A stretch of DNA of 64,000 nt from a virus. Shown here piece after piece: positions 3,249 to 61,228 of this stretch. The DNA lies in IMG/VR virus record IMGVR_UViG_3300045988_150584. One strand, written 5' to 3'. The position numbers and the translations under genes were made by a program. The first letter of the stretch is position 1. Each line of letters starts with the position of its first letter. The notes beneath the pieces were generated by a model. The model ran no database searches. It was not told the origin of the DNA and saw nothing but the letters and a program-made list of their open reading frames with translations.

Positions 3249-3270
3249 AAATTATTTTGCTAATTCCTTA
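3249..3270 (-). promoter_or_regulatory. class-B intercistronic motif copy
   Basis: Reads TAAGGAATTAGCAAAATAATTT on the minus strand, just upstream of CDS 2426-3232. Confidence 0.5.
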
Positions 3271-3913
3271 GAAAGAAAATTCAATACTTGAATCATACCT
3301 ATCATTGAGCCTTCGCTCTACCTCCATTACCTTCTCACAATGTTCAGCCACCAGGGAGATAAGTCTGAGCTTCAAGGAGCGACCTTTAACTTCTTACCCC
3401 AGCCTTACACAGCGAACTGTATTAGGCCAATTCCTGCGCGGGATTGTTTACCCGCAAATTTCACCGTTCGTTCAGAAAATTTGATAGTTTCATACAATTT
3501 CTTTTTCATCATATCGTATTAAAGATCAAACACCAAAACTGTCCTACGGCTACTTTAACCGGCGACTTTCGTTATAGTCGAGTTTCTTCGACATCAAGAC
3601 AGGAGCGCATTGTTGGCATTTCCTCCGGTTGTACTGGTTGCCACACCAGCATCCTTGAGGATTATTCTCCACAGGAGCGTCTATTGCTGCGCCCGAAAGT
3701 TCCGTGCTTTTTGTAGCGATAACTCTTGGCAACACACATTTTCGTTGGCGGTTTCTGCCTTCCAGCAATACATCGCTGCATTACTGCCGCCTGGACAATA
3801 AAAGGTATCCCTCGTAAATCCAGCGGGAACTACTGTGCGTCTCGGAGTGCTGACACACTTTATTCACCGAGTTAATCATAAGCATGATTCAAATATTGAA
3901 TTTTCAAAGATCA
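3271..3913 (-). ncRNA. candidate large structured non-coding RNA (~640 nt ORF-free, flanked by tRNA genes)
   Basis: - No credible ORF in any frame.
- Nested complementary segments on the minus strand, for example GGCGG..CAGC-gatgtatt-GCTG..CCGCC.
- Repeated GCTCCTGT and a GCAGCAAT core.
- Lies inside an RNA-gene cluster. The strand is assumed from context. Confidence 0.35.
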
Positions 3914-3989
3914 TGGAGCTGGCGACAGGACTTGAACCCGCAACCTGATGATTACAAATCACCTGCGCTACCAATTGTGCCACGCCAGC
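3914..3989 (-). tRNA. tRNA-Thr(UGU)
   Basis: Acceptor GCTGGCG/CGCCAGC, anticodon arm GGTGA-TTTGTAA-TCATC, T-arm GCGGG-TTCAAGT-CCTGT. CCA is encoded. Confidence 0.9.
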
Positions 3990-4051
3990 ATATTGTTTAG
4001 CTATGTCCTCTTGTCATTATTGAGTATAGCACATGGGCACATAGTTGTCAA

Positions 4052-4072
4052 TAGGAATTAGCAAAATAATTT
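4052..4072 (+). promoter_or_regulatory. class-B motif copy (no plus-strand gene downstream)
   Basis: TAGGAATTAGCAAAATAATTT, sharing a 20-nt identity with the copy at 61207-61228. Confidence 0.4.
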
Positions 4073-4081
4073 CAGATTTTT

Positions 4082-4157
4082 TGGTGGCTGAGGCTGGGCT
4101 TGAACCAGCGTCTCCGCTTTATGGGAGCGGCAAGAAAACCAGCTTCTCCACTCAGCC
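4082..4157 (-). tRNA. tRNA with CAU anticodon and C33 in the anticodon loop
   Basis: Acceptor GGCTGAG/CTCAGCC, D-arm GAGA..TCTT, anticodon arm CCGCT-CCCATAA-AGCGG (C where U33 is nearly universal), T-arm GCTGG-TTCAAGC-CCAGC. CCA is encoded. Confidence 0.75.
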
Positions 4158-4186
4158 AAATAGGGAGGGGCAAAAGCCCCGTCCCA
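4158..4186 (-). terminator. hairpin downstream of the HU gene
   Basis: Minus strand GGGACGGGGC-TTTT-GCCCCTCCC followed by TATTT. The T-tract is weak. Confidence 0.45.
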
Positions 4187-4189
4187 TAG

Positions 4190-4474
4190 TTACTCTCGAA
4201 TACTTCTTAAAAGTTCTGCTCCGGACTTAAATACGACATTCTGGAACTCTGGAACAACAATGCTTTCTTTCGTTACCGGATGAAGAGCAGGATGTGACTT
4301 GTACTTTTTCACATCAAATGTTCCAAACCCATAAATCGAAACGCGATCTCCATTTCTAAGAGCATTCGCAATTTCATCAAAAATATCGTCAACGATATCC
4401 TTGACCATGTACTTCTTATACGCCTTATTATTCTGAGCAAGCGTATTTACTAAATCTGCTTTATTGATATTCAT
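4190..4474 (-). CDS. HU/IHF-family DNA-binding protein
   Basis: 94 aa, MNINKADLV...SIYGFGTFDVKKYK..VVFKSG. The length is typical and the GFGxF arm motif is present. Confidence 0.9.
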   Translation of the reverse strand: MNINKADLVNTLAQNNKAYKKYMVKDIVDDIFDEIANALRNGDRVSIYGFGTFDVKKYKSHPALHPVTKESIVVPEFQNVVFKSGAELLRSIRE

Positions 4475-6144: not shown

Positions 6145-6274
6145 ATAAAGTCTTCATTCCTTTTCAAAAAAGATGTCTGGGCTGCGGATATCGCACCGCA
6201 GCCATAGACAGGAGAATCCCGAATAGATTAGTAAATACGGTTTTCTTCCCTTAAAGGTCTTTTTCTTTTTGGTT

Positions 6275-6307
6275 GCAAATACTCCGTTGAACAACGGGTA
6301 TTTCGTT
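6275..6307. promoter_or_regulatory. 33-bp direct repeat copy 1 containing a CGTTG-AA-CAACG palindrome
   Basis: gcaaatactccgttgaacaacgggtatttcgtt, repeated at 6342-6374 with one mismatch. Confidence 0.6.
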
Positions 6308-6341
6308 ATATTTGCCAAGCATTATTTGGCATATTTGATAG

Positions 6342-6374
6342 GCAAATACTCCGTTGAACAACGGGTGTTTCGTT
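6342..6374. promoter_or_regulatory. 33-bp direct repeat copy 2 containing a CGTTG-AA-CAACG palindrome
   Basis: gcaaatactccgttgaacaacgggtgtttcgtt. Confidence 0.6.
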
Positions 6375-6411
6375 TTATCAGACTTCAAAATAAAACATGG
6401 GGACATTTTGT

Positions 6412-6431
6412 GCTGTTTAGCTAATTCCTAA
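6412..6431 (-). promoter_or_regulatory. class-B motif copy
   Basis: TTAGGAATTAGCTAAACAGC on the minus strand, directly after the stop of the 898-aa gene. Confidence 0.5.
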
Positions 6432-6436
6432 CAACA

Positions 6437-9133
6437 TCATGCGACGCTCCGCTGACGTCGTTTCTTCTCACGCTCATAATTGCGAATATGGATAGCCTGA
6501 CAGTCATTGCAGCGTTTCTTGTTCTTCACGATGCCGTCTACCTCAAACTCTTTTCCGCAATCAATACACCGCAATTTCTTTTTGCCGAGTGGATGATATC
6601 CAGAGCAATTCGTACACACTTTCTGCTGCGGGGAAAGCGGAACGAAACGCTCTCCGCATTTTTTGCACTGAATAGAGCCATCTGGAATATTTCGCTTGAG
6701 ATTCTCCAGAACGATATCGCCAAAGCACATCCAAAAAACATTTTTCCTACGACTATTCTTGCTATGAAATAGATATTTCACAAGAATGTCGCAAACATCC
6801 AAACGCTCAAGGCCAAGCTCATCGAATTGCTTCAAGATATTATCCCGAATATACGCAAAGTTCGAGTCATCGTCATAAAAGCTAATTGAATAACGATACT
6901 GTTTTTCCACATCATTATACAAATCCGTCACAGGTAATAAAAGTTCAATCTGTTTCATCGGATTACTAAGCATATACTGATATCTGAAGACACCAATATT
7001 CTTCGCGGCAAAAGACATCCGCTTATTAGGGACGATATGTTCAAGCTGGTTTACAACACTATTGTTCGTTCGCTGAACCTGAGATTTTGTTTTCTTTTTA
7101 GCGTGGATAAAAAAATGCGGTGCTTTCATGCTTGTAATTCTCGCAAGACGAGCATTGATTTCATCTGGTCGAGTTGGCTTATACAATGTCTTGGCATAGT
7201 CGATACAAAAGTTGTTCTCCATACAAAGGATTTTAATTGCTTCTATATCAACATCCGCACCGTTCCAAATCTTCGTAATATCATTACTAATAACACCGAT
7301 ATTACCGCCAGTCCATGCGGCGCGAAGCCCTTTGAAGATTTCCTCTGGTGTAATCGTAACAGCGCCGGCTTTTGCCATTTCGTAATATAAAGGAACAACC
7401 CCTTCCATATTGCGCTCAGCAATAGCCACGAGTAAGGAATCTGCGCATACAAGACTTTTATCTCCATCGCAATCAAATTGCAGGATCTTTGAAATTAAGT
7501 CATGGCAGCTCGTATAGATAGCATTTTGAGAAAACCACTTTTTCGTTGCGCTGGTAACAACATTTTTACGAATAGCATGTTCACGATATAGGTGCGGTGA
7601 GCGTAGACAGTCCAATTTACTTACCGTGCGATAAAGGTAACAAGATACCTCTCCATCTGCAAGCAGACCAACAGGACTGCGATTTCCAAGAAACAGCCAT
7701 TCACAAAAAGCATAGAGATCCGGAATCAAGAACATATACTTTGCGCTTAAATCAATCTTTGCCGCTCTCGCCTCAGTAACAAGATTCTTCTTGATTTGCC
7801 GTAGCATCTCTTTTGTGTACGGATCGGAAAGTAATTCCGGATAGATACTAAGACACTCCTGAAAAGCATTCTTATTGCGATACTGTGTAGAAGCTCCGAA
7901 CACATCAAGCATGGTATTCTTATCCGATGCAATTTTAGCAATTTTGTCAATCGTCTTTCCCGCGAGCTGTTCAAGTTCATCGGGACTCAAATCCGTAAGA
8001 GTCTGAAGCATTTGGTAGTTAAGCTTTGCGTCAGGGATAAAATCCTCTTCCTCATTACACTTACCGACAGTGCAGCCATTCGCCAAAAACAAATCAATGT
8101 ATTCCTGCCAACTCGTGTAATACTTGTACATCTTAAATTGACTTTTCGTAAAAATGACCTGAATATCCTCCGCGATTACATCATGTTCAAACCCATAGAT
8201 ATCTGTTACCAAACCATGATTTACAGACGGATCGCGTTCGTTTGCTTCCGAAATAAACTTATCAAACGGGAATACGGCAAGAAGCCCTTTTACCCAAGGA
8301 AGACGAACCATAGTATTCTTTGCATTACAAGAGGGAAGAACCATTCCACAACCATCCGTATGTGTAATCGGAATTTCCATGTCCCTACGCTCTACACTGT
8401 ATGTTTTGTGATCAATAAAATCAACAGTTCCACGAACCATTGTTTCCATATCATCCACAACGATGGTCTTTCTGATATCGAAATCTTCCCACAAATCAGT
8501 TGCGCTATTACACAGTGCAAGATACGCCAGGTACTTATTGATATTGATTCCGCCAAGCTCGTTGATTTTTTGAACGCTCAGTCCACACATAATGGTTTTT
8601 TGATACTTCTCCCAAACTCTTTCCTTAATGAAAACTGTTTTCTTTGTTCTGATCTGCCCAGCAGATGCCGTAAAACAAATATAACGCTCTCCGTTAAAGG
8701 TATATCCGTTTAGGATGAGATCTTCAATTACATCAAAATAATATGTGCGAATAACCATGAAATCGTCATACAGTTTTCCTGTTTCCATGCCGAGTGTTCT
8801 TGTAAGCATCGACTCAAAAACAGAAATCACATTCTTATCAACCACATATTCAGTTCGTAACTCGCGCTGCGAACGGTGTGCTTGAAGAAGCGATACAAGC
8901 TCAGACTTCTTAATCTTAATCATTTGGTTTGTACCACGAATTTCTTTCGCAATCTGTTTTACACGGGAATTATCCATCGCAACAGGAATCGGATCTGACT
9001 TTCCCATGCCATACAATTTACGAAACTGAGACTCAGCTTTCTCCCTGGCTATTTCTCCAGCACATAGCTGCTTAATAATTTCTCGCTCTGATTTTAATTT
9101 CGATTTTGAAGAACAATGCTTATTGATCTCCAC
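6437..9133 (-). CDS. YonO / RdRP-like two-barrel single-subunit RNA polymerase candidate with C-terminal Zn-ribbons
   Basis: - 898 aa, with motifs in the order seen in eukaryotic RdRPs and phage YonO-type enzymes.
- YICFTASAGQIRTKK (SxSQLR-like), THTDGCGMVLPS (DGxGxxS), VRLPWVKGLL (RxxxxKGxL), CLRSPHLYREH (RxPxxH) and QFDCDGDKS (DxDGD metal-binding loop).
- Four CxxC pairs at the C-terminus.
- The GTG start at 9133 is uncertain. The frame stays open and protein-like up to an AAGGAG-N9-ATT at 9211. Confidence 0.7.
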   Translation of the reverse strand: MEINKHCSSKSKLKSEREIIKQLCAGEIAREKAESQFRKLYGMGKSDPIPVAMDNSRVKQIAKEIRGTNQMIKIKKSELVSLLQAHRSQRELRTEYVVDKNVISVFESMLTRTLGMETGKLYDDFMVIRTYYFDVIEDLILNGYTFNGERYICFTASAGQIRTKKTVFIKERVWEKYQKTIMCGLSVQKINELGGININKYLAYLALCNSATDLWEDFDIRKTIVVDDMETMVRGTVDFIDHKTYSVERRDMEIPITHTDGCGMVLPSCNAKNTMVRLPWVKGLLAVFPFDKFISEANERDPSVNHGLVTDIYGFEHDVIAEDIQVIFTKSQFKMYKYYTSWQEYIDLFLANGCTVGKCNEEEDFIPDAKLNYQMLQTLTDLSPDELEQLAGKTIDKIAKIASDKNTMLDVFGASTQYRNKNAFQECLSIYPELLSDPYTKEMLRQIKKNLVTEARAAKIDLSAKYMFLIPDLYAFCEWLFLGNRSPVGLLADGEVSCYLYRTVSKLDCLRSPHLYREHAIRKNVVTSATKKWFSQNAIYTSCHDLISKILQFDCDGDKSLVCADSLLVAIAERNMEGVVPLYYEMAKAGAVTITPEEIFKGLRAAWTGGNIGVISNDITKIWNGADVDIEAIKILCMENNFCIDYAKTLYKPTRPDEINARLARITSMKAPHFFIHAKKKTKSQVQRTNNSVVNQLEHIVPNKRMSFAAKNIGVFRYQYMLSNPMKQIELLLPVTDLYNDVEKQYRYSISFYDDDSNFAYIRDNILKQFDELGLERLDVCDILVKYLFHSKNSRRKNVFWMCFGDIVLENLKRNIPDGSIQCKKCGERFVPLSPQQKVCTNCSGYHPLGKKKLRCIDCGKEFEVDGIVKNKKRCNDCQAIHIRNYEREKKRRQRSVA

Positions 9134-12658: not shown

Positions 12659-13249
12659 TTATACATGAGTCCATATCTGACCACTGACTATTTTAGAAAT
12701 TAGATTCGCAGATACTCCGTATTGATTTGCTAATTCCTTTCTGTTGCACCTTACACCAGAACCTCTTGGCACATAGTTCATGCGAATTTCTCGCACATCG
12801 TCCTCGGTCAGCTTCGACATACCATTACAGCTTCCAGCATAAGCGCCAAGGTGTGACAGATATCCGAGTTGTGCCGGCACATCATAGTCAATCAATTCAA
12901 GATCAACAGCATGAAAATAATTTTCCTGCCTTGTACACCATTCAAGGTTATCCACCCAATTGTGCTGCTTGCAACCGTCAATATGATTGACAATCTCATA
13001 CCCGATGGGGTTCGGAATAAAAGTCTCAGCAACACACCGATGTATCCTCACATTAAGCCGATGTCCAAACACAGAAATGCAAACCTGCTGATATCCGCCA
13101 GCACCATAACCGCAAGAGTAGAGCTTTCCAGTAATGGCACTTCGTATTCTGCCGAAAGTAGACACCTCAAACCGCCATGAGTAGTCAACGCCCTGATATA
13201 TAGCACCGTGCCATACTTCGTTATCAAAATCCCGAAACACCACAATCAC
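12659..13249 (-). CDS. HNH homing endonuclease (NUMOD4 + HNH_3 type)
   Basis: FEVSTFGRIRS, HRCVAETFIPNP, VNHIDGCKQHNWVDNLEWCTRQEN, and a C-terminal HTH-like tail. Confidence 0.85.
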   Translation of the reverse strand: MIVVFRDFDNEVWHGAIYQGVDYSWRFEVSTFGRIRSAITGKLYSCGYGAGGYQQVCISVFGHRLNVRIHRCVAETFIPNPIGYEIVNHIDGCKQHNWVDNLEWCTRQENYFHAVDLELIDYDVPAQLGYLSHLGAYAGSCNGMSKLTEDDVREIRMNYVPRGSGVRCNRKELANQYGVSANLISKIVSGQIWTHV

Positions 13250-17580: not shown

Positions 17581-17596
17581 ATTCATCACTCCTTGC

Positions 17597-17617
17597 ATAT
17601 TGTTTAGCTAATTCTTT
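17597..17617 (-). promoter_or_regulatory. class-B motif copy immediately 5' of the integrase RBS
   Basis: AAAGAATTAGCTAAACAATAT followed by GCAAGGAG. Confidence 0.5.
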
Positions 17618-17623
17618 AGAAGC

Positions 17624-17645: not shown

Positions 17646-17706
17646 CAATCTTTACATAAGATATTATACCACAAATCGGTCTGAAGTCAATAAAAATCGG
17701 AAAGAA

Positions 17707-17727
17707 AATATTGTTTAGTCAATTCCG
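17707..17727 (-). promoter_or_regulatory. class-B motif copy (variant)
   Basis: CGGAATTGACTAAACAATATT. Confidence 0.4.
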
Positions 17728-17751
17728 TTCATTTGCAAATTCGATAGAAAT

Positions 17752-18050
17752 GCGTTGATTAAGGCATATTCCGTAGCATAAAATTATAAAAATGTATTTT
17801 TATGTGTTGATCTAAAGACGAAGATCCAGCGTTGATTAAGGCATTCTTCCGAAGACAAGTCTGTAGCAGAAGATATTTATATTTGTAAGGGAATATATCG
17901 TTGATGAACGGTGTGTTTGAGAGATGGTGTTTGGTGAAAAAGATAGAGGCGTGGAGAAGAGGGTACAAAGCCAAATTTTTGGCGTTGCTAAAGTCGTGAA
18001 AATGTAAACCCACCCCCCCTATGCAGATAGCAAAATAGGCGTTGATCTCC
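17752..18050. repeat. iteron array (five GCGTTGAT-type repeats), putative replication origin or regulator binding array
   Basis: gcgttgattaaggcat at 17752 and 17829, tcgttgatgaacgg at 17898, gcgttgcta at 17982, gcgttgatctcc at 39-50 of 18xxx (18039). Spacing is 55-85 bp in a non-coding region. Confidence 0.55.
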
Positions 18051-18120
18051 GTTAGTTCCGCATACTCCACAAAAGCGGAATCGAAAAAGGCGGTGTTTCT
18101 GCTGCCGTTCATGTCTGCCG

Positions 18121-18545: not shown

Positions 18546-18681
18546 CGCTGGGAGACGATGCAGGCCAAAAGGATATGGCATAATGCACAATTCTGTAAGG
18601 CTGTATTTGTATGATGTGCTAATAGCATATTGCACAAAAAGATGCTGTTTTTAGCTTGCTATTTTTACATTTTGTCAAGGT

Positions 18682-18701
18682 GTTATTTAGCTATTTCCTA
18701 T
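18682..18701 (-). promoter_or_regulatory. class-B-like element abutting a sigma70-type promoter
   Basis: Plus strand gttatttagctatttcctat. It pairs with the near-identical arrangement at 37789-37836. Confidence 0.45.
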
Positions 18702-18729
18702 TGCAAATTCCGCTTTTGTGTGGTATAAT
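18701..18729 (+). promoter_or_regulatory. sigma70-like promoter for the rightward block
   Basis: TTGCAA-17 nt-TATAAT with a TGg extended -10. Confidence 0.6.
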
Positions 18730-18790
18730 CCTTAATGTAAGGTAAAGGAAACGAGATCGACGGCGGCGGGTGCGCCGCTGCTGGACGATC

Positions 18791-18812
18791 TAAGGAAGTA
18801 GTTAAATAATAT
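18791..18812 (+). promoter_or_regulatory. class-B motif copy directly 5' of an RBS
   Basis: TAAGGAAGTAGTTAAATAATAT followed by GGAGG. Confidence 0.5.
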
Positions 18813-18825
18813 GGAGGTAAACATC

Positions 18826-19640: not shown

Positions 19641-20423
19641 ATGAAAAAGTACAATGTCAAGTCGATCATGTCCCGCGCCTGGGCTATCTATCACGAAACC
19701 GACAAAGGCGATGGCCTGCGCCCTGTGTTCTCTCTCTGTCTGGCTATGGCGTGGGAGGACGCAAAGAACACGCCGGAAAACATCCTGCACCAGTGGGCGG
19801 CGATGGATACCAAAGCGCAGATCAACATGCTGACGGCTAACATCAAGAAGGCAGCAAAGAACGAGATCGGATACAGCACGGAAGATCACTATGCAGAGTT
19901 TAACGAGACTGTTGCATGGTTCTTGAATCATCACGGGATCGACGGTCTTGTAAATGAGGCTTGGGTAAAGCTGGCGGAACGGCTGGATGCTGACTATCTG
20001 GACAAGCTCAACGCAAAACGCGCCGCATCTGGTAAGGTCAATATTTCTCTGGTGGCTCTGGTGTATCGTAGCGCAAAGGATGCAATCCGCGCCGTATATC
20101 GTGACGATATCAAGCACGGACGCGCTCGCGTTCACGAGATCACCGACAAGAACGGCGAAAGCCGCGACTATCTGGACACGATGGCAAGCACCGGCAAGGA
20201 TGAGACGGCAAGCACCGCAACGCTGCGCGTAGCGCTGGAACAGTTTGTAAACAGCCGCGACGAGATCGACCGCATGATTATTGAATGCAAGTGCGACAAT
20301 TACACGGAACGCGAGATCGCGGAAGTTGTCGGAATCAATCGCGCCGCCGTCCATAAGCGCATTGACAAGATGCGCGAGGCTCTGCGGAATATCGGCCTTA
20401 CACCTGCGGAAGCTGTGGCGTAA
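19641..20423 (+). CDS. sigma-factor-like protein (region 4 HTH at the C-terminus)
   Basis: C-terminal NYTEREIAEVVGINRAAVHKRIDKMREAL is a typical sigma70 region 4.2 HTH. The upstream segment VALVYRSAKDAIRAVYRDDIKH is region-2-like. The N-terminal ~100 aa are unrelated. Confidence 0.6.
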   Translation: MKKYNVKSIMSRAWAIYHETDKGDGLRPVFSLCLAMAWEDAKNTPENILHQWAAMDTKAQINMLTANIKKAAKNEIGYSTEDHYAEFNETVAWFLNHHGIDGLVNEAWVKLAERLDADYLDKLNAKRAASGKVNISLVALVYRSAKDAIRAVYRDDIKHGRARVHEITDKNGESRDYLDTMASTGKDETASTATLRVALEQFVNSRDEIDRMIIECKCDNYTEREIAEVVGINRAAVHKRIDKMREALRNIGLTPAEAVA

Positions 20424-20442
20424 GGAAGTAGTTAAACAGTAT
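20421..20442 (+). promoter_or_regulatory. class-B motif copy overlapping the sigma-like gene's stop
   Basis: TAAGGAAGTAGTTAAACAGTAT. The first 16 nt are identical to the copy at 18791. Confidence 0.45.
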
Positions 20443-20534
20443 GAGCGCCGCTCCGGTAGGAGCTGGGGAGGCTGCTCTGAAAAAATCTTGAACGACGGTA
20501 AGCAAACGGCGGGAACGCTTGGAGGGTGTAGCGG

Positions 20535-32354: not shown

Positions 32355-32630
32355 ATGGGAAAGTGCATTACAAGTTGTGGGAAGGACAAAGCTCGTTGCT
32401 GTACAGATGATTGTTTTCTCCGTGTTGCAGAAGGTAGCCGCCTGAGAGATTTGAAGTACAACAATATTGCGTGTTTCTGTAGCGGATTGTCCGTCTATGA
32501 TGACGGAAAAGAGGTTGCCTGCGGTTTTATCGGAGAGGTTCTTCGTTCCGTTGCACATCTGGCGGATCGTGAGATTGAGAGCTGCAACACATTTTTCGAT
32601 ATGTTTGTGATTCGTCTTAAAAAGAAGTAA
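32355..32630 (+). CDS. hypothetical Cys-rich protein
   Basis: AGGAGG RBS. 91 aa. Confidence 0.5.
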   Translation: MGKCITSCGKDKARCCTDDCFLRVAEGSRLRDLKYNNIACFCSGLSVYDDGKEVACGFIGEVLRSVAHLADREIESCNTFFDMFVIRLKKK

Positions 32631-32661
32631 GCAAATCAATATACCAGTTGGTAGTTATAGT
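32627..32661 (+). promoter_or_regulatory. class-A bipartite motif (copy 8)
   Basis: GTAAGCAAA-N14-GGTAGTTATAGT. The first block extends to GAAGTAAGCAAATCAATAT, which resembles class B. Confidence 0.7.
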
Positions 32662-35770: not shown

Positions 35771-35799
35771 AGAGGACACAAAAAGTCTTTTATCTTAGC

Positions 35800-35821
35800 A
35801 AAGGAGTTAGCAAATCAATAT
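35800..35821 (+). promoter_or_regulatory. class-B motif copy
   Basis: AAAGGAGTTAGCAAATCAATAT followed by TGGAGG. Confidence 0.45.
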
Positions 35822-35969
35822 TGGAGGTGTCATATGGGCTACTCTTTTATCCATCGTCGGCAGATACAATAGCGGAAGCGCATAAGGAATTGGCAAAAGA
35901 GCTGGAAGCGTCAAGAAAGATCGAATAAAATAAGCCTCCCCAAAACGGGGAGGCGGAAAGAGAGCATAT

Positions 35970-37255: not shown

Positions 37256-37264
37256 GCGTAGTGT

Positions 37265-37280: not shown

Positions 37281-37291
37281 CTATGGTTGAA

Positions 37292-37320: not shown

Positions 37321-37353
37321 CATGATAATCAATATTGGAGGGTGTGTATCAGG

Positions 37354-37797
37354 ATGAATGTATTAAACGGTTCAGAGCAGTATGAGATGAGAGCAGAGGA
37401 TTTTGGTATGGAGAGCGCACAGCCCGATAAGATCGTCCTCCCGTATCTTGGGATGTTATGGGGAGATTTTCTTTTGGATATTATGAACGCTGTATCTCGA
37501 AAGATGGCGCTTCCTCATGACGCATTATATGAGCAGCTTGTAAAACAAGTTTCTGCTGTATTCTCTTTTAATATTCAGCCGGCGCAAATTCGTATTATTG
37601 CCTATGTTGATGTATTCCCGTTTGACGGAACATCGTTTCGTGATCGAGTTTTTGTTCAGGCCAGTAATGATGAAATCGCCTCTGTGTTGGACAGGTTTTT
37701 TCAATGTGGTTGTTGTGGATTAGAAGATGACTATTCTACATATTATCACGAAAAATATATGGCGTGGCGCGAAGCAAAAAAAATAAAACTTATTTAG
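37354..37797 (+). CDS. hypothetical protein (first rightward gene of the switch)
   Basis: MNVLNGSEQYEM.. after GGAGGG. 147 aa. Confidence 0.55.
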   Translation: MNVLNGSEQYEMRAEDFGMESAQPDKIVLPYLGMLWGDFLLDIMNAVSRKMALPHDALYEQLVKQVSAVFSFNIQPAQIRIIAYVDVFPFDGTSFRDRVFVQASNDEIASVLDRFFQCGCCGLEDDYSTYYHEKYMAWREAKKIKLI

Positions 37798-37836
37798 CAA
37801 TTTCCTATTGACAAACGGCTTCCGCTGCGCTATACT
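37789..37836 (+). promoter_or_regulatory. class-B-like element plus sigma70-type promoter
   Basis: cttatttagcaatttcctaTTGACA-17 nt-TATACT. The architecture is near-identical to 18682-18729. Confidence 0.65.
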
Positions 37837-37890
37837 ATCACTTGTAAGGAGCAAGTTAAACAACTTATAATTTGAATAGGAGGGTGGCGC

Positions 37891-38850
37891 GTGGATAACA
37901 GTAGTTACCGTAGCCAGTATATCGCCTCTGATACTGCAAAGGTATCTGAACAATCCGCAAATGCGGTAATTGCATTTTGGAGGCGTGTTGCAAAGGCAGA
38001 GGGTGAAATCGGAAAGAGTCTGGAAGATGGGTATTCAAGAGCAGAATACATCGAACTGATCTCAAAGTTGAATATCACAAGCCCCAATGTCCTGCTTCCT
38101 ACAAAAAGCCGAATCGGAAAGTATTTGAAGTGGCTGCGAGAAAAAGGCGTTCTTGAAAAAGAGTATGTCGATAATCTTTATGCCGTTCGATACAATGCGA
38201 TTAACGCAAATCATGTTTACGACAGCAAGTATTTCAAAGATTTTGAGTCGTTACAATCTGCGATTGAATCTACCTTGTGGGCTGCTGAGAAAGTTGATGA
38301 TAGTGTCTTTGCTCTTCAAATCTCCGCAATTTACTTTGCGTGGCTTGGTTTACACATCGAAGAGGCACTTCAAATCAAGAAAGATGATATTAAAGATGAT
38401 TGTGTAAAAATTGGAGATCGAACCATCATTCCAAACAGTACGATTATGGCGTATCTTTGTGATTACCGTGATGCGGTTGACTACGAGTCTCAGGCAAAGG
38501 GTGTCATTCGTTTGAAGTATATAAACTCCGAATGGCTGTTTCGCACCGCCCGCTCGACGCATGTGGATGTACCTAAGGTAATGAGGATCTTCATTCGTAA
38601 CTTCGGTTTGGCCGGCAATGAAGAAGCAAATATCTTTAATTATGATAAGGTGTACTGGTCTGGCATATTCAGCCGTGCGCATGAATACGAGCAGGAAAAC
38701 GGTGAGATTGAGGCTGGTAACATCCCACTTCTTGAAAAACTATTTAATGAAAAGTATCCGTCTGTTTCTGTAGCGCATAAGCGTTTGCACGAATATCAAG
38801 GTTTCAAGCAGCATTTCTTTTCTGATAGCGCCTCCAACGAGGAAGCTTAA
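37891..38850 (+). CDS. integrase-like protein lacking the canonical catalytic Arg/His/Tyr pattern
   Basis: GTG start after AGGAGGG. AWLGLHIEEALQIKKDDI resembles recombinase box I but has His in place of Arg. No HxxR motif was seen. Confidence 0.4.
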   Translation: MDNSSYRSQYIASDTAKVSEQSANAVIAFWRRVAKAEGEIGKSLEDGYSRAEYIELISKLNITSPNVLLPTKSRIGKYLKWLREKGVLEKEYVDNLYAVRYNAINANHVYDSKYFKDFESLQSAIESTLWAAEKVDDSVFALQISAIYFAWLGLHIEEALQIKKDDIKDDCVKIGDRTIIPNSTIMAYLCDYRDAVDYESQAKGVIRLKYINSEWLFRTARSTHVDVPKVMRIFIRNFGLAGNEEANIFNYDKVYWSGIFSRAHEYEQENGEIEAGNIPLLEKLFNEKYPSVSVAHKRLHEYQGFKQHFFSDSASNEEA

Positions 38851-38875: not shown

Positions 38876-38876
38876 C

Positions 38877-38898
38877 ATAGGAATTAGCTAAACAAGAT
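38877..38898 (+). promoter_or_regulatory. class-B motif copy
   Basis: ATAGGAATTAGCTAAACAAGAT. Confidence 0.45.
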
Positions 38899-38970
38899 AT
38901 GTCCGAATAGTTTCCGGTGAAACGCAGTTGAGAGCAGGTTCAACTCCTGAGCGGATACAAAGCTAATCTT

Positions 38971-42626: not shown

Positions 42627-42691
42627 GCCCCTCCTTTAAGACACAGACAGCATCGAATGTGAAATGGTGTCTTGAAGGCTATTTCAAACAA

Positions 42692-42712
42692 AAAGAAATT
42701 AGTTAAACAATT
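42692..42712 (+). promoter_or_regulatory. class-B motif copy directly 5' of an RBS
   Basis: AAAGAAATTAGTTAAACAATT followed by CAAGGAGG. Confidence 0.5.
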
Positions 42713-42728
42713 CAAGGAGGAAGAAAGT

Positions 42729-46350: not shown

Positions 46351-46626
46351 ATGGTTGTAAGTCTACGCGAAATAGTGATGTCGCATGAAAAGATTTATTC
46401 GCTGCTCTATTCTCCGTGTAGAATCGAGAGTGACCCGATTGAAAAGCAGATTGTAGAAATTAGTACGAAGTCTCTGCGTTGGTCGGATGATGGGACGATG
46501 TTTGTCTATGTCTGGGGTTGGCCTGGGCCGGACTTTAACAGATATTCTGCAAAGACATACGGAAAAGGCTGGGCATTTACAAAACAGGAAATCATTGATG
46601 CCTGGGAGAGCGAGAATAGGAAGTAG
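46351..46626 (+). CDS. hypothetical protein
   Basis: AAGGAGG RBS. 91 aa. The stop TAG lies inside a class-B motif. Confidence 0.5.
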   Translation: MVVSLREIVMSHEKIYSLLYSPCRIESDPIEKQIVEISTKSLRWSDDGTMFVYVWGWPGPDFNRYSAKTYGKGWAFTKQEIIDAWESENRK

Positions 46627-46637
46627 CAAATCAATCC
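46616..46637 (+). promoter_or_regulatory. class-B motif copy overlapping a stop codon
   Basis: ATAGGAAGTAGCAAATCAATCC. Confidence 0.4.
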
Positions 46638-46729
46638 TATGTACAGTTCATTTCTTAAAATAATTCACTGAAAAACACAGAGTTTTTCGTTGCAAGCAAG
46701 CGCAACTAATGATTGGAGTGTAATTTGCC

Positions 46730-52490: not shown

Positions 52491-53930
52491 ATGTACGCAG
52501 CATATGTAACTCGTATTAAGAATTTGCGCAAACATTCAAACGCGGATCGACTTCTCTGCGGTGAATGTTTTGGCAATACGGTAATTGTGGGCTTGGATAC
52601 AAAGCCAGAAGAGCTGGGTGTCTATTTCCCCGTAGATGGCAAGCTTGGCACTGAGTATGCGGTGAAGAACGACCTGCTTCGCCGTAAGGATGAGAACGGT
52701 AAGCCTGCTGGTGGTTATCTCGATCCTGAAAAGCGTAATATTAAGGCGTTGAAGCTTCGTGGCGAAAAGAGCGATGGCTTGTTTATGCCATTGTCCAGTT
52801 TGAGTGGGTTCACAGATATTGCAAAGCTCCGTGATGGCGATGTAATTACCATTTTGAATGGTGTTACAATTTGTGAGAAGTATATCCCCCATCGTAAGAA
52901 GAGTACCATTATGGTTGGGGGGGGTAGGACTCGTAAGCATCACGATCCTGTTGCTCCGCTCTTTGCGGAACATGCTGACACGGAACAGCTCGCATATAAC
53001 CTCAGCGCATTTCACCCAGGCGATCTTGTTGAGATTACTTTGAAAATGCACGGCACATCTCAGCGAACCGGATATCTACCAATGCTTAAAGGATATAAGA
53101 AGACATTGCTTGATAAGCTCCTACATCGCATTGGTTCTCCGATTTATAATTGGGGATATGTAACTGGTACTCGTCGTGTTGTCTTGGATGATTTTGACGG
53201 TGGCTTTTATGGTAGCAATGCTTTCCGTGAACAGCATAGCAAGGTTTTTGAAGGTAAGCTGCATAAGGGCGAAACCGTGTACTATGAAGTCGTTGGCTTT
53301 ACGCAAGACAAGCAGCCTATTATGGCATCTTGCGACAATAAAAAAGTCGGTGATAAGGAATTTGTTAAACAATACGGCGAAAAGACAGTGTTTAGCTATG
53401 GTTGCTATCCAGACGGTGTAAAGGAAGTAACAAATCCGAAAATTACACACGCAACAGTAATGATTGGCGATACCTCTTTTACAGCAAATGAGATTACGGA
53501 ATATGAATCTGCTCCGCAGTCTGATTTCTATGTGTATCGAATGACAATGACAAATGAGGATGGCGATGTTGTTGAATACACACCAGACTTTATGCGTTAT
53601 CGTTGTGAACAGATGGGCGTTAAGTGTGTTCCGCTATTTGCTCGATTCATTATTCCGGATTACATTCAGCTTCCTGATGCTGTTGGGTCTCCGATGGCTG
53701 TCAATGCTGGCGAATATGTCAAGGAAATTGCTGAAAACTTCTATGATGGTGCAGACCCGATTGGTAAGTCGCATGTCCGCGAGGGCGTTGTTTGCCGTAT
53801 CGTAAACCGCCCAAAGTTTACAGCATATAAGCACAAGAATTTTGCATTCAAGGTGCTTGAGGGAATTGTAAAGGATGTTGCGTCTGCTCCGGACATGGAA
53901 GAAGCGCAAGATGATGTAAGCGTTGCATAA
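52491..53930 (+). CDS. ATP-dependent RNA ligase (Rnl2/Rnl5-like, N-terminal OB module)
   Basis: N-terminus YVTRIKNLRKHSNADRLLCGECFGNTVIVG (DRB0094-type OB). Nucleotidyl-lysine motif EITLKMHGTS (KxHGT). An in-frame G8 tract at 52917-52924 encodes GGG. Confidence 0.8.
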   Translation: MYAAYVTRIKNLRKHSNADRLLCGECFGNTVIVGLDTKPEELGVYFPVDGKLGTEYAVKNDLLRRKDENGKPAGGYLDPEKRNIKALKLRGEKSDGLFMPLSSLSGFTDIAKLRDGDVITILNGVTICEKYIPHRKKSTIMVGGGRTRKHHDPVAPLFAEHADTEQLAYNLSAFHPGDLVEITLKMHGTSQRTGYLPMLKGYKKTLLDKLLHRIGSPIYNWGYVTGTRRVVLDDFDGGFYGSNAFREQHSKVFEGKLHKGETVYYEVVGFTQDKQPIMASCDNKKVGDKEFVKQYGEKTVFSYGCYPDGVKEVTNPKITHATVMIGDTSFTANEITEYESAPQSDFYVYRMTMTNEDGDVVEYTPDFMRYRCEQMGVKCVPLFARFIIPDYIQLPDAVGSPMAVNAGEYVKEIAENFYDGADPIGKSHVREGVVCRIVNRPKFTAYKHKNFAFKVLEGIVKDVASAPDMEEAQDDVSVA

Positions 53931-59533: not shown

Positions 59534-59648
59534 TAAAATTATTCAAGTTGGGAACTGGACGCAAGGTGCAAAACGCGAGAATCCGCAAAGAGGTCGAGTA
59601 TACGATCCGTCAGGAATTGCACCATCCCTCACCTGTATGGGGGGGTAA
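59526..59648 (+). pseudogene. TRD fragment of the C5-methyltransferase locus ending at a G7 tract
   Basis: ..QRGRVYDPSGIAPSLTCMGGG*. G7 lies at 59639-59645, and one G fewer continues as GGNLQPFIIV.. Confidence 0.5.
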
Positions 59649-59698
59649 TCTTCAGCCGTTTATAATCGTCCGTAATGAACATGTTGAGTTAGAAAGTA

Positions 59699-60775
59699 GT
59701 GCTGATGAAGAGTAGCGTTTTAATTCCCGCAGCAATTCACGGTCGTTATTCTGACAATGGTAGTATTGTGCAGCGATTAGAGCTTAGGCCAGATAAATGC
59801 ACGAATACGCTTACCTCTGTACAGAAGGACAATATTATAGTGGAATGCTGCATTGATATCCGTTTCTCCACTGAACGGAGTGAAGATGTGAAAGAAAACA
59901 ATATGCCAGTCAATGTTGGAAATGTAAATCCGTCTGGGCATGGAATGAACGGTACGGTCTACGACGCAGATGGCGTTTCTCCGACATTAACGACGAATAA
60001 AGGAGAGGGCGTAAAAATCCGCATTAAATCACCTACGCCCTTACACCAGACAATTATCTATGATGACTACAATAGGAGGATCAAGTCGGATCAGACTTGT
60101 ATAGGAACAGTTATGCCAAATTTCAAAAATGACGCTCCTGGCAATGGAACTAAGCTGATTGAAGTAAGTCCTACACCAGAGGATAAAATCACAATGCTTG
60201 GCGGCTTGCAAAAGCACCAGACTCCGAGAGACGATGGTATCTGCCCATGCGTAAATAGCGCTGCCGGTATGGGTGGTGGGCAAACGCCTATTGCAATGCG
60301 CCCAGGTTTTCGGGTAAGAAAACTCACGCCGAAAGAGTGTTGGCGTTTGATGGGTTTTGACGATGAGGATTTTGAAAAAGCACGCGATGCTATGAACGAG
60401 AATATTTATAATGGTAACGACCGTTCCAGTTCGCAGCTCTATAAGCAGGCCGGTAATAGTATTGTCGTAGATGTCCTTCAGCATATTATGGAGAATCTAT
60501 ATGACGCTATGCCATATCTGTTTGACGATATGTCTGTTGGATCGTTCTTCAGCGGTATTGGCGCTTTTGAAAAAGCTCTATCGCGGCTTGATACAAGGCT
60601 GAGCGAGAATACTCAGAATGGTTCTTCCGCCGAACTTACACAGATTGGATATATCAACGATTATAATGGAGACGCAAATCGTGTATATGATGGCGCTGCC
60701 ATTGCCCGTGCCTTGAAAGCCGAGGCGGGGGGGGCGGAGCAAAGACCGGATGGTACAGTGTCAATGCTTCGTTAA
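59699..60775 (+). CDS. C5-methyltransferase continuation: further TRDs plus motifs IX/X
   Basis: RLELRPDKCTNTLTSVQKDN, NGTVYDADGVSPTLTT, RKLTPKECWRLMGF, QLYKQAGNSIVV (motif X), then FFSGIGAFEKAL (motif I-like). The frame ends 41 nt after G8 at 60727-60734. Confidence 0.65.
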   Translation: MLMKSSVLIPAAIHGRYSDNGSIVQRLELRPDKCTNTLTSVQKDNIIVECCIDIRFSTERSEDVKENNMPVNVGNVNPSGHGMNGTVYDADGVSPTLTTNKGEGVKIRIKSPTPLHQTIIYDDYNRRIKSDQTCIGTVMPNFKNDAPGNGTKLIEVSPTPEDKITMLGGLQKHQTPRDDGICPCVNSAAGMGGGQTPIAMRPGFRVRKLTPKECWRLMGFDDEDFEKARDAMNENIYNGNDRSSSQLYKQAGNSIVVDVLQHIMENLYDAMPYLFDDMSVGSFFSGIGAFEKALSRLDTRLSENTQNGSSAELTQIGYINDYNGDANRVYDGAAIARALKAEAGGAEQRPDGTVSMLR

Positions 60776-60776
60776 A

Positions 60777-60920
60777 GTGATTGGAAGAATAATTCCAGAT
60801 AGCAAGAAGCTTCACCAAAATCAGGAAGTGTATGATACGGATTCGTGTAGCGGCGGAGGGCTTTCGCCTACGATTAAAGCCACGCACTACAAAGATCCAC
60901 CCAAAATTGAGGTGCAGTAG
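60777..60920 (+). pseudogene. TRD-like fragment
   Basis: ..QEVYDTDSCSGGGLSPTIKATHYKDPPKI.., in a different frame from the preceding ORF. Confidence 0.45.
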
Positions 60921-61123
60921 TGGAAACAGTCAGAATTAAGCAAGCCACAAAACAGGGTTTTATTGAGTGCGTCGTGGGGGGGGCTGTCGATCTCTCCTAT
61001 CCAAACTCAAAAACAAGGCGTGGTCGAGTACAAGAGGGCGGAACGATCTGCCCGACAATTACAGCACAGAATACCGGCATCTGCCTTATTGAAAAAGCAG
61101 ATTATTCCCGCAAATCCACTTGA
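60920..61123 (+). CDS. TRD-like ORF (GTG start)
   Basis: KQATKQGFIE..SKTRRGRVQEGGTICPTITAQ. An in-frame G8 tract lies at 60976-60983. Confidence 0.45.
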   Translation: METVRIKQATKQGFIECVVGGAVDLSYPNSKTRRGRVQEGGTICPTITAQNTGICLIEKADYSRKST

Positions 61124-61150
61124 CAGATAGCGTCAAGCGTGTTATTATAT

Positions 61151-61172
61151 AGAGGAAATAGCTAAACAATAT
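61151..61172 (+). promoter_or_regulatory. class-B motif copy
   Basis: AGAGGAAATAGCTAAACAATAT. Confidence 0.45.
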
Positions 61173-61206
61173 CGGAATGGCATGTAGCCATCCGTTTGGT
61201 TCTTTC

Positions 61207-61228
61207 AAAGGAATTAGCAAAATAATTT
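61207..61228 (+). promoter_or_regulatory. class-B motif copy 5' of an RBS
   Basis: AAAGGAATTAGCAAAATAATTT followed by ATTAAAGGAG. Confidence 0.5.

What the first reader, a model, noticed from the sequence alone, without database searches (positions are those of the whole stretch)
3249..61228. ~20-bp intercistronic motif (A/T)AGGAAnTAG(C/T)nAAAnAAT(A/T)T, about 18 copies on both strands, usually stop codon to motif to RBS
Copies lie at 3249(-), 4052, 6412(-), 15098(-), 17597(-), 17707(-), 18682(-), 18791, 20421, 35800, 37789(-), 38877, 42692, 46616, 50911, 58079, 61151 and 61207. They share a GGAAnTAGnnAAA core.
- Several overlap the stop codon of the upstream gene (TAA or TAG is part of the motif).
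- Most end 0-8 nt before the next Shine-Dalgarno, which is too close for a sigma70 promoter.
- At 15098 the next ATG follows with no SD at all.
- The core overlaps the first block of the class-A motif ((T)AAGCAAA).
- Two inverted copies sit exactly upstream of the -35 of two near-identical TTG(A/C)(C/A)A-17-TATA(A/C)T promoters (18701 and 37808).

Possible roles are a phage-RNAP promoter, an RNA processing or translational-coupling signal, or a binding site for one regulator that coordinates both strands.
Basis: seen in the sequence. Interest (0 to 1): 0.7.

Follow-up and report, generated by a model that had tools for sequence, protein, structure and literature searches.

The report
Repressor-box repeats in SPbeta-like gut phage
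A real 23-24 bp sequence repeated about 25 times through this large phage genome is most likely the docking site of the phage's integrase-shaped master repressor, as in Bacillus phages SPbeta and phi3T. That makes it a new example of a recently described control system, not a new kind of signal.

Summary
All 18 listed copies exist, and a matrix built from them finds 7 more (25 in total; shuffles give about 1 weak hit). Consensus is nAAAGGAATTAGCTAAACAATAT, about 24 bits, asymmetric, with no RNA fold.

- 22 of 25 copies point the same way as the local genes.
- 22 of 25 lie outside coding sequence.
- About 10 end 0-4 nt before a Shine-Dalgarno.
- The four best host-type promoters outside an ImmR-type switch are each bracketed by two copies.

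The window is an SPbeta-like temperate phage. It carries a YonO-type RNA polymerase, HU, 16 tRNAs, tmRNA and ROOL RNA.

ORF 37891-38850 folds like the SPbeta/phi3T repressor MrpR/YopR/SroF (Foldseek E 1.6e-9). That family binds 24-26 bp asymmetric boxes as monomers. I scanned phi3T for its published box and found 25 copies, all co-oriented with genes. Seven abut a Shine-Dalgarno, about seven abut a -35, and one sits just after sroF. This is the same layout as here.

The SroF-like gene with its bracketing copies is conserved in diverged relatives, and the motif shifts in concert within each lineage.

Best reading: operator set of an SroF/MrpR-like repressor (about 0.6). Rivals: YonO-type promoter (about 0.17), another DNA-binding protein (about 0.12), an RNA-level signal (about 0.08). 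It is a new member of a known kind.

The parts
3248..3271 (-). motif copy (subtype GCAAAATAATTT). Lies 17 nt after the ROOL RNA end. An SD follows 3 nt later and the ATG of the DUF6273 gene is at motif position 36.
   Evidence: 31.0 bits
Starts about +5 of the 4051(-) promoter. Its last base is +1 of tRNA-Thr.
   Evidence: 24.2 bits with a matrix that excludes it. The same abutment is seen in relatives L016 and L041.
4050..4073 (+). reversed copy. Its 5' end abuts the -35 (TTGACA) of the leftward tRNA-Thr promoter.
   Evidence: Conserved in all lineages.
6409..6432 (-). motif copy 5 nt after the stop of the YonO-like RNAP gene. Present only in close relatives.
12718..12741 (-). motif copy inside an HNH-endonuclease ORF, 79 nt before the next gene
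   Evidence: 28.7 bits
15097..15120 (-). motif copy that overlaps the upstream stop codon. The next ORF starts at the ATG in motif positions 18-20, with no SD.
17596..17619 (-). motif copy downstream of the 17690(-) promoter. An SD follows 3 nt later, then the integrase-family gene.
17707..17730 (-). direct copy 16 nt upstream of the -35 of the 17690(-) promoter
18679..18702 (-). reversed copy abutting the -35 (TTGCAA) of the rightward early promoter
18790..18813 (+). direct copy 60 nt after the -10 of the 18701 promoter. The SD follows with 0 nt gap.
20420..20443 (+). direct copy overlapping the stop codon of the sigma-like ORF
32620..32643 (+). weak copy overlapping the upstream stop codon, before the methylase-helicase gene
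   Evidence: 18.8 bits, borderline
35799..35822 (+). direct copy after the helicase gene. An SD follows 1 nt later.
37786..37809 (-). reversed copy abutting the -35 (TTGACA) of the promoter of the SroF/MrpR-like gene
   Evidence: Conserved in L190, L196, L202 and L204.
37844..37867 (+). direct copy at about +1 of that promoter, before the SD and GTG of the SroF/MrpR-like gene
   Evidence: 17.3 bits. Position conserved in relatives.
38876..38899 (+). direct copy 26 nt after the stop of the SroF/MrpR-like gene, followed by conserved non-coding sequence
   Evidence: phi3T has a box 33 nt after sroF.
42691..42714 (+). direct copy. The SD follows with 0 nt gap, then the TROVE/vWA-like gene.
46615..46638 (+). 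direct copy overlapping the upstream stop codon
50910..50933 (+). direct copy overlapping the upstream stop codon. An SD follows 1 nt later.
53353..53376 (+). copy inside the RNA-ligase ORF
   Evidence: 28.3 bits
55779..55802 (+). copy spanning the upstream stop codon
   Evidence: 22.2 bits
58078..58101 (+). direct copy starting at the upstream stop codon. An SD follows 1 nt later.
61150..61173 (+). direct copy, first of a tandem pair
61206..61229 (+). direct copy (subtype GCAAAATAATTT). An SD follows 4 nt later.
62178..62201 (+). weak copy inside an ORF
   Evidence: 17.2 bits, borderline
37891..38850 (+). gene for the proposed binder: a 319-aa integrase-fold protein, structural homologue of SPbeta MrpR/YopR and phi3T SroF
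   Evidence: Pfam MrpR_N_CB E 1.3e-4. AF2 model pLDDT 87.9. Foldseek hits 8bj6, 8bpz and 8a0a at E 1.6e-9 to 9e-9, and 9rd5 at 3e-7.
4023..4051 (-). sigma-A-type promoter TTGACA-17-TATACT (TG), bracketed by copies 4054(+) and 4008(-)
17663..17690 (-). sigma-A-type promoter TTGACT-16-TATAAT (TG), bracketed by copies 17726(-) and 17615(-)
18701..18729 (+). sigma-A-type promoter TTGCAA-17-TATAAT (TG), bracketed by copies 18698(-) and 18794(+)
37808..37836 (+). sigma-A-type promoter TTGACA-17-TATACT of the SroF-like gene, bracketed by copies 37805(-) and 37848(+)

Best explanation
The motif is the operator ('box') of the phage's master repressor, the 319-aa integrase-fold protein encoded at 37891-38850. 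This protein is a distant homologue of SPbeta MrpR/YopR and phi3T SroF.

Proposed mechanism, inferred by analogy:
- One repressor monomer clamps around each 23-24 bp asymmetric box.
- Pairs of boxes bracket the host-type (sigma-A) promoters and shut off initiation. These promoters include the repressor's own, the early rightward promoter, the leftward promoter and the tRNA/ROOL promoter.
- Single co-oriented boxes wedged between genes (stop codon, box, Shine-Dalgarno) act as internal roadblocks. They keep the long operons silent in the lysogen, much like mycobacteriophage stoperators.

Shown here: the motif statistics, the layout, the fold of the protein, conservation in relatives, and the identical layout of the experimentally defined phi3T box.

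Inferred: that this protein binds this motif, and that binding represses.
For: 1. The motif is real, long and asymmetric: 24.5 bits over about 23 positions, and the central TTAGCTAA palindrome is not maintained in variants.
2. The window is SPbeta-like. It has a YonO-type RNAP 47% identical to YonO, plus HU and yonJ-like exonuclease in synteny.
3. ORF 37891-38850 gives a confident model (pLDDT 87.9). Its best PDB matches are YopR/MrpR (E 1.6e-9) and DNA-bound phi3T SroF. There is also a weak Pfam MrpR_N_CB hit.
4. Published work shows that SroF binds as a monomer and reads 24 of 26 bp of an asymmetric box present at many sites across the phage genome (bioRxiv 10.1101/2025.11.27.690993). MrpR ChAP-seq peaks coincide with the repeated SPBRE element (PMC10516654).
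5. My scan of phi3T with its published box gives 25 copies against 0-1 in shuffles. All are co-oriented with local genes. Seven end 0-4 nt before an SD, about seven abut a -35, pairs bracket promoters (58066/58155 and 120952/121039), and one lies 33 nt after sroF. SPbeta SPBRE copies show the same features at yonX, yopM and yopV. This matches the window point by point, including the SD adjacency that first suggested a promoter.
6. The four best intergenic sigma-A-type promoters outside the ImmR-type switch are each bracketed by two copies.
7. The arrangement [reversed copy]-promoter-[direct copy]-SD-gene-stop-[direct copy] around the SroF-like gene is conserved in lineages where that protein is only 47-54% identical; the most divergent lineage (L208, 45%) keeps the direct copy but no reversed copy was detected.
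8. Direct copies change in concert within each lineage (GCTAAACAATAT / GTTAATCAATCT / TAACTAAACAAT / TAAyTAATTCATTTT), as expected for sites read by one co-evolving protein.
Against: - There is no binding data. The assignment rests on homology and on layout.
- The box sequence is unrelated to the SPBRE or to the phi3T box, although those two also differ from each other.
- Copy density is twice that of phi3T and about five times that of SPbeta. Most copies in 40-64 kb have no recognisable sigma-A promoter nearby.
- At -35-abutting sites the window copies are reversed, whereas in phi3T they are direct.
- The reversed 'subtype A' copies did not co-vary with the direct copies in the L017 lineage.
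- Three features are at least as naturally explained by a transcript 5' end at the motif's 3' edge: two SD-less ORFs that start at motif positions 18-20, tRNA-Thr +1 abutting the motif, and conserved non-coding sequence starting right after two copies.
- No Sar antirepressor or arbitrium homologue was found.
Confidence: 0.6

Rival explanations
1. The motif is the promoter of the phage's own YonO-type single-chain RNA polymerase (gene 6437-9133, minus strand). It would have a T7-like layout: about 20 conserved bp upstream and the start site at the motif's 3' edge. That would give mRNAs whose 5' end sits just before the Shine-Dalgarno, a few leaderless mRNAs, and a tRNA with almost no leader.
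For: - A YonO-type RNAP is encoded in the window, and its promoter sequence has never been defined (PMC5467207).
- Copies are co-oriented with genes, at a T7-like density of 25 per 64 kb.
- An SD follows 0-4 nt after about 10 copies.
- SD-less ORFs start at motif positions 18-20 in the window (15116-) and in L017 (4904+).
- tRNA-Thr +1 abuts the motif in three lineages.
- The 40-64 kb region has no good sigma-A promoter.
- The motif varies in concert between lineages.
Against: - In SPbeta, YonO drives a single late operon from one start site.
- A different element (paired palindromes followed by cTTTAAGGGAgA) is conserved just downstream of every yonO-like gene. It occurs once in the window, at 6255(-).
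- The SPbeta P_YonO primer window does contain TAAACAATAT. That 10-mer is not conserved in an 86%-identical relative or in B. pumilus, whereas TCGGATAATAGTCATTTATGAGGGT is.
- Two of the three reversed copies would fire antisense into tRNA-Met and late genes, or into an ORF.
- The same SD-adjacent layout exists for the phi3T box, which is a proven repressor site.
Confidence: 0.17
2. The motif is bound by a different phage DNA-binding protein. Candidates are the early sigma70/ECF-like protein (19641-20423), the HU homologue (4190-4474) or the 248-aa tyrosine recombinase (16834-17580). That protein would act as activator, architectural factor or recombination site.
For: - All three proteins are encoded in the window.
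- GGAAT resembles ECF -35 elements (own knowledge).
- Copies sit next to the genes for the sigma-like protein and the recombinase.
- The reversed copies centred near -47 are in a classical activator position.
Against: - The conserved block is too short and too close to the SD to hold both a -35 and a -10. No conserved -10 follows at 16-17 bp, so a sigma-type start would fall inside or after the SD.
- The motif has no dyad or two-arm recombination-site structure.
- HU-family specificity for a 23-bp asymmetric site is unusual (own knowledge).
Confidence: 0.12
3. The motif works in the mRNA as an unstructured leader element next to the ribosome-binding site. It could be a translational operator or enhancer, or an endonuclease processing site that uncouples cistrons. 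It would be comparable in position to the start-associated sequences of Cluster K mycobacteriophages.
For: - Orientation is strictly sense for 22 of 25 copies.
- The motif lies 0-4 nt from the SD even where there is free upstream space (42695, 18794, 61210, 3267).
- It abuts the tRNA 5' end.
- The window encodes an RNA ligase and a TROVE-like RNA-binding protein.
Against: - Three near-identical copies lie reversed and abut -35 hexamers, where they would not be transcribed in sense.
- Several copies are far from any start codon (6428, 38880, 61154, 17726).
- Folds differ between copies and z-scores range from -0.75 to +1.8, so there is no shared structure.
- Variants show no compensatory pattern.
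Confidence: 0.08

Closest known systems
SroF (MrpR/YopR) repressor and its boxes (SPBRE) in Bacillus phages SPbeta and phi3T
   Same: - Integrase-fold repressor: the top Foldseek hits of the window protein belong to this family.
- Long asymmetric box of about 24 bp.
- Many copies spread over the genome, all co-oriented with genes.
- Pairs of boxes bracket sigma-A promoters.
- Copies end right before Shine-Dalgarno sequences.
- One box lies just after the repressor gene.
- The phage backbone carries YonO-type RNAP, HU and exonuclease.
   Different: - The box sequence is unrelated.
- The protein is only about 15% identical in structural alignment, and the Pfam hit is below threshold.
- The host is probably a gut Clostridia member (Oscillospiraceae-like), not Bacillus.
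- Copy density is higher.
- Copies that abut a -35 are reversed.
- No Sar antirepressor or arbitrium genes are detected. An ImmR/ImmA-type module sits next to the gene instead.
Stoperators of Cluster A mycobacteriophages (L5 gp71 type)
   Same: A monomeric repressor binds more than 20 asymmetric sites. These lie in promoters and in short intergenic gaps, and their orientation tracks the direction of transcription (PMC9283540).
   Different: The sites are 13-mers read by an HTH-plus-stirrup protein, not a 23-24-mer read by an integrase fold. The phages and hosts are unrelated. An elongation block has not been shown for any SroF-type protein.
Promoters of single-subunit phage RNA polymerases (T7 class), and the undefined YonO promoter
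   Same: A roughly 20-bp conserved, oriented sequence repeated between genes at about one per 2.5 kb, in a phage that encodes its own RNAP.
   Different: YonO is a two-barrel enzyme unrelated to T7 RNAP. The only mapped YonO start site lies in a region whose conserved block does not resemble this motif. No transcript 5' ends are known here.
Start-associated sequences (SAS) of Cluster K mycobacteriophages
   Different: The SAS includes the ribosome-binding site itself and is 13 bp long. The present motif precedes the SD. It also occurs reversed at promoters, next to a tRNA, and away from genes.

Membership tests
SroF/MrpR repressor-operator system (SPbeta-like phages) | Repressor with tyrosine-recombinase (CB + CAT) fold | tested here: met
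   AF2 model pLDDT 87.9. Foldseek top hits are YopR/MrpR 8bj6, 8bpz and 8a0a (E 1.6e-9 to 9e-9) and SroF-DNA 9rd5 (3e-7), ahead of XerA, lambda Int and Cre. Pfam MrpR_N_CB E 1.3e-4 is below the curated cut-off.
SroF/MrpR repressor-operator system (SPbeta-like phages) | Loss of recombinase catalytic residues (no catalytic tyrosine) | not tested
   Active-site positions were not mapped onto the model. Pairwise BLAST to YopR is too weak for residue-level calls.
SroF/MrpR repressor-operator system (SPbeta-like phages) | Operator is a long (24-26 bp), asymmetric, non-palindromic box | tested here: met
   24.5 bits spread over about 23 positions with no dyad symmetry. Compare with the 26-bp phi3T box.
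SroF/MrpR repressor-operator system (SPbeta-like phages) | Many boxes across the genome, at early sigma-A promoters, co-oriented with genes | tested here: met
   25 copies, 22 co-oriented. Four promoters are bracketed. The same layout was measured in phi3T (25 boxes) and SPbeta (11 SPBRE).
SroF/MrpR repressor-operator system (SPbeta-like phages) | The repressor physically binds the box and represses | not testable with these tools
   Needs EMSA or footprinting, ChIP and reporter assays.
SroF/MrpR repressor-operator system (SPbeta-like phages) | Sar-type antirepressor and arbitrium (AimR/AimP) partners | tested here: not met
   tblastn of phi3T Sar and SPbeta AimR against the window gives nothing below E = 0.5. 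Only this 64-kb window was searched, and these proteins are small and fast-evolving.
Stoperators (Cluster A mycobacteriophages) | Asymmetric sites in short intergenic gaps, with orientation correlated to transcription | tested here: met
   Definition taken from PMC9283540.
Stoperators (Cluster A mycobacteriophages) | L5 gp71-type HTH repressor and a 13-bp site | tested here: not met
   The site is 23-24 bp. The candidate binder has an integrase fold. No gp71 homologue was searched for specifically.
Stoperators (Cluster A mycobacteriophages) | Orientation-dependent block of elongation | not testable with these tools
   Requires reporter assays.
Phage-RNAP (YonO-type) promoter | Cognate phage RNAP is encoded | tested here: met
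   Pfam RdRP PF05183 E 6.6e-15, phrog_8308, and 47% identity to YonO.
Phage-RNAP (YonO-type) promoter | Primary transcripts start at a fixed position of the motif | not testable with these tools
   No RNA data are available. Indirect hints only: SD-less ATG at positions 18-20 and tRNA +1 at position 20.
Phage-RNAP (YonO-type) promoter | Resemblance to the region of the one mapped YonO start site (SPbeta), conserved among relatives | tested here: not met
   TAAACAATAT lies in the primer-extension window but is lost in L087 (86% RNAP identity) and L086. The conserved block is a different sequence. The exact start coordinate 2225998 could not be mapped.

The most novel reading that the evidence does not exclude
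The motif could be the long-sought promoter class of YonO-type single-chain two-barrel RNA polymerases, used here genome-wide rather than for one late operon, with starts at the motif's 3' edge. A hybrid version is also possible: the SroF-type box doubles as the initiation or 5'-end-defining site. That would explain why boxes in the window, phi3T and SPbeta so often end exactly at the Shine-Dalgarno, a feature no published model accounts for.
Probability: 0.17. Interest if true: 0.75.

Novelty: new member of a known kind. Interest (0 to 1): 0.45.

Why it matters
If the assignment holds, the SroF/MrpR system was described only in 2023-2025 and only in Bacillus SPbeta-family phages. This result would extend it to uncultivated gut-type phages of Clostridia, with a new box sequence and a stoperator-like density.

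It also exposes a shared and so far unexplained design rule: boxes end at the Shine-Dalgarno or at the -35, in the window, in phi3T and in SPbeta alike.

Finally, it gives a ready-made, testable repressor/box pair. It also separates this motif from a second conserved element, next to every yonO gene, that is a better candidate for the still-undefined YonO promoter.

Tried and rejected
1. SPbeta P_YonO link. The primer-extension window of PMC5467207 contains TAAACAATAT, the only copy on the late strand. I rejected it as support because it is not conserved in L087 or L086. I also could not map coordinate 2225998. B. subtilis 168 was not among the genome-contig hits, YonO itself was not returned by the protein search, and no coordinates were found in supplements.
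2. The full motif matrix has no meaningful hit in SPbeta, nor in relatives whose RNAP is 55% identical or less.
3. Sigma-A promoter reading of the motif. There is no consistent -35 upstream, and any -10 inside the motif would place the start within or after the SD.
4. ECF-sigma reading. No conserved element follows at 16-17 bp.
5. Covariation test of motif against RNAP and against the SroF-like protein. All lineages co-diverge, so the test is not discriminating.
6. Megablast of 20 kb of the window against phage records gave no match.
7. The apparent repeated 8-mers upstream of SDs in the Oscillibacter locus L106 were an artefact of overlapping regex matches.
8. RNA structure around six copies showed nothing.

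Full report
**What is there.**
- The core GGAANTAGNNAAA with at most 1 mismatch occurs 25 times, against 5.6 +/- 2.4 in dinucleotide shuffles.
It recovers 25 sites at 14 bits or more. Shuffled sequence gives on average 1.4 sites at 10 bits or more and a mean maximum of 12.2 bits.
- Seven copies are new. 4008(-), 12737(-), 53357(+) and 55783(+) score 22-29 bits. 32624(+), 37848(+) and 62182(+) score 17-19 bits and are borderline.
- The consensus is nAAAGGAATTAGCTAAACAATAT. A recurrent subtype is GGAATTAGCAAAATAATTT. The internal palindrome TTAGCTAA is not preserved in variants.

**Layout.**
- Genes run leftward below about 18.7 kb and rightward above it. 22 of 25 copies have the strand of the local genes.
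- 22 of 25 copies lie outside ORF bodies, although only 16.5% of the window is non-coding.
- Several copies contain or abut the upstream stop codon.
- About ten copies end 0-4 nt before a Shine-Dalgarno, with the start codon at motif positions 33-38. This holds even where there is free space upstream.
- One ORF (15116-) starts at the ATG formed by motif positions 18-20, without an SD. An unrelated SD-less ORF does the same in relative L017.
- Copy 4008(-) ends exactly at +1 of tRNA-Thr. The same is true in relatives L016 and L041.
- The three reversed copies (4054+, 18698-, 37805-) each abut the -35 hexamer of a strong host-type promoter with their 5' end (CCTA|TTGACA). Each of those promoters has a direct copy downstream.
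- A fourth strong promoter, 17690(-), is bracketed by two direct copies.
- The remaining consensus promoters form a divergent pair at an ImmR/ImmA-like module.
- Between 40 and 60 kb there is no good sigma-A-type promoter.

**What the window is.** It is a large temperate-type phage.
- RNA genes: 16 tRNAs, a tmRNA and a ROOL RNA.
- Polymerase: an 898-aa protein of the eukaryotic-RdRP-like two-barrel family. It is 47% identical to SPbeta YonO and 51% identical to the Clostridium phage D-1873 homologue.
- Synteny: HU and a yonJ-like exonuclease lie alongside, as in SPbeta.
- Relatives: close and graded relatives are abundant in IMG/VR. Among the genomes returned by a YonO-seeded search of genome contigs, the nearest polymerase is 64% identical, in Oscillibacter/Oscillospiraceae MAGs.

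**Is it the YonO promoter?** This was my first idea. The YonO promoter is explicitly undefined in the literature (PMC5467207).
- I located the published primer-extension primers in SPbeta and found TAAACAATAT between them. This is the 3' half of the window motif and the only copy on the late strand.
- Phylogenetic footprinting removed this support. In a relative with 86% identical YonO, and in B. pumilus, that 10-mer is not conserved. The block TCGGATAATAGTCATTTATGAGGGT is conserved.
- That block belongs to an element found just downstream of every yonO-like gene examined. The genes examined were in SPbeta, D-1873, Perkons, the window and its IMG/VR relatives.
- The element is a pair of lineage-specific palindromes followed by cTTTAAGGGAgA. 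It occurs once in the window, at 6255(-).
- By homology, this element is the better candidate for the YonO start region, not the 25-copy motif.
- I could not map the published coordinate exactly.

**The repressor link.**
- ORF 37891-38850 (319 aa) has a weak Pfam hit to the MrpR N-terminal domain.
- With an alignment of 22 homologues it gives a confident model (pLDDT 87.9).
- Its best PDB matches are SPbeta YopR/MrpR (E 1.6e-9 to 9e-9) and phi3T SroF bound to DNA (E 3e-7). These rank ahead of true recombinases.
- MrpR ChAP-seq peaks coincide with the repeated SPBRE element (PMC10516654).
- A 2025 preprint shows that SroF binds as a monomer and reads 24 of 26 bp of an asymmetric box present at many genomic sites (10.1101/2025.11.27.690993).
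- A box of that length and asymmetry is exactly what the window motif looks like.

**The phi3T comparison.** I scanned phi3T with its published box.
- There are 25 copies at 6 mismatches or fewer, against 0-1 in shuffles.
- All are co-oriented with local genes.
- Seven end 0-4 nt before an SD.
- About seven abut a -35-like hexamer.
- Pairs 87-89 bp apart bracket promoters.
- One box lies 33 nt after the sroF stop.

SPbeta's SPBRE copies behave the same way at yonX, yopM and yopV. So the features that most suggested a promoter or an RNA signal are all properties of an experimentally defined repressor box in the sister phages. These features are orientation, SD adjacency and intercistronic packing. 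The window also has a copy 26 nt after the stop of its SroF-like gene.

**Relatives.**
- The motif is present wherever the polymerase is 70% identical or more.
- Direct copies carry lineage-specific, concerted changes. In the most divergent lineage the motif reads GGrrTTAAyTAATTCATTTT.
- SroF-like genes at 47-54% identity keep the [reversed copy]-promoter-[direct copy]-SD-gene-stop-[direct copy] arrangement; in the 45% lineage (L208) only the direct copy before the gene was detected.
- All candidate trans factors co-diverge, so covariation does not single one out.
- One discordant detail: the reversed subtype-A copies stay GCAAAATWATTT even where the direct copies have shifted.

**Other candidates.**
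- ORF 19641-20423 is a divergent sigma70/ECF-like protein. It matches TIGR02937 at E 2.7e-8, below the cut-off, and PDB profile hits cover region 4 only.
- The motif cannot hold a -35 and a -10 at sigma spacing. Any sigma-type start would fall within or after the SD.
- RNA folding of six copies shows no shared structure, with z-scores from -0.75 to +1.8.

**Verdict.** The motif is real and functional.
- Most likely (about 0.6): it is the operator set of an SroF/MrpR-like master repressor. Promoter-bracketing pairs would block initiation, and intercistronic copies would act like stoperators (PMC9283540).
- A YonO-type promoter remains possible (about 0.17). It would be the more novel outcome.
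- Another DNA-binding protein (about 0.12) and an RNA-level role (about 0.08) are less likely.
- Binding and repression are inferred, not shown.

Noticed in passing
window 6145-6436 (-), with the element at about 6255(-); palindromes at 6283-6298 and 6350-6365: Downstream of the YonO-like RNAP gene lie two copies of CCCGTTGTTCAACGG, then cTTTAAGGGAAGA. An equivalent arrangement (lineage-specific palindrome pair plus TAAGGGAgA) follows the yonO gene in the IMG/VR relatives examined; SPbeta, D-1873 and Perkons share the TAAGGGAgA block there. The related block TCGGATAATAGTCATTTATGAGGGT is the only part of the published SPbeta P_YonO window conserved as far as B. pumilus. It is a candidate YonO promoter or leader.
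   Followed up: partly
window 3288-3895 (-): A full-length ROOL RNA (RF03087, 400 bits) lies between tRNA-Thr and motif copy 3267(-). It sits in what is probably the start of the late or tRNA transcription unit.
   Followed up: no
window 41842-41952, 42184-42298, 42385-42499 (+): Three Rfam tRNA matches of 111-115 nt were not called by ARAGORN. They may be intron-containing or otherwise unusual tRNA genes. They lie next to tRNA-Ser and tRNA-Leu.
   Followed up: no
window 17750-18650: The strand-switch region carries GCGTTGATTAAGGCAT iterons (17752, 17829, 17982) and a 450-bp CT/G-rich degenerate repeat tract (about 18090-18560). It looks like a replication origin or another protein-loading region.
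   Followed up: partly
window 36166-37797: An ImmA-like (Peptidase_M78) and ImmR/RstR-like repressor pair lies on the minus strand, with consensus divergent promoters at 37320(-) and 37227(+). The rightward promoter drives a 147-aa ORF with no family match, directly upstream of the SroF-like gene. That ORF could be an antirepressor, given that no Sar homologue was found.
   Followed up: partly
window 19641-20423 (+): An early gene encodes a divergent sigma70/ECF-like protein. Matches are to TIGR02937 and phrog_1740, and only region 4 matches solved sigma factors. Its promoters are unknown and are not the motif studied here.
   Followed up: partly
loci L218-L220 (phi3T KY030782.1) and L001-L003 (SPbeta): The published phi3T SroF box has 25 genomic copies, all co-oriented with genes. 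Many end exactly at an SD or at a -35, and one lies just after sroF. SPBRE shows the same pattern at yonX, yopM and yopV. I did not find the SD adjacency mentioned in the papers I read.
   Followed up: yes
window 1685-2100 (-) and 79-4157 (-): A phage-borne tmRNA gene sits within an array of 14 tRNA genes. The window also encodes an RNA ligase (52491-53930) and a TROVE/vWA-like RNA-binding protein (42729-44273).
   Followed up: no
locus L087 (NZ_JBHVTC010000023.1, labelled Streptomyces sp.): This contig carries an SPbeta-like prophage segment whose YonO is 86% identical to the B. subtilis protein. It is probably Bacillus contamination in a Streptomyces assembly.
   Followed up: no
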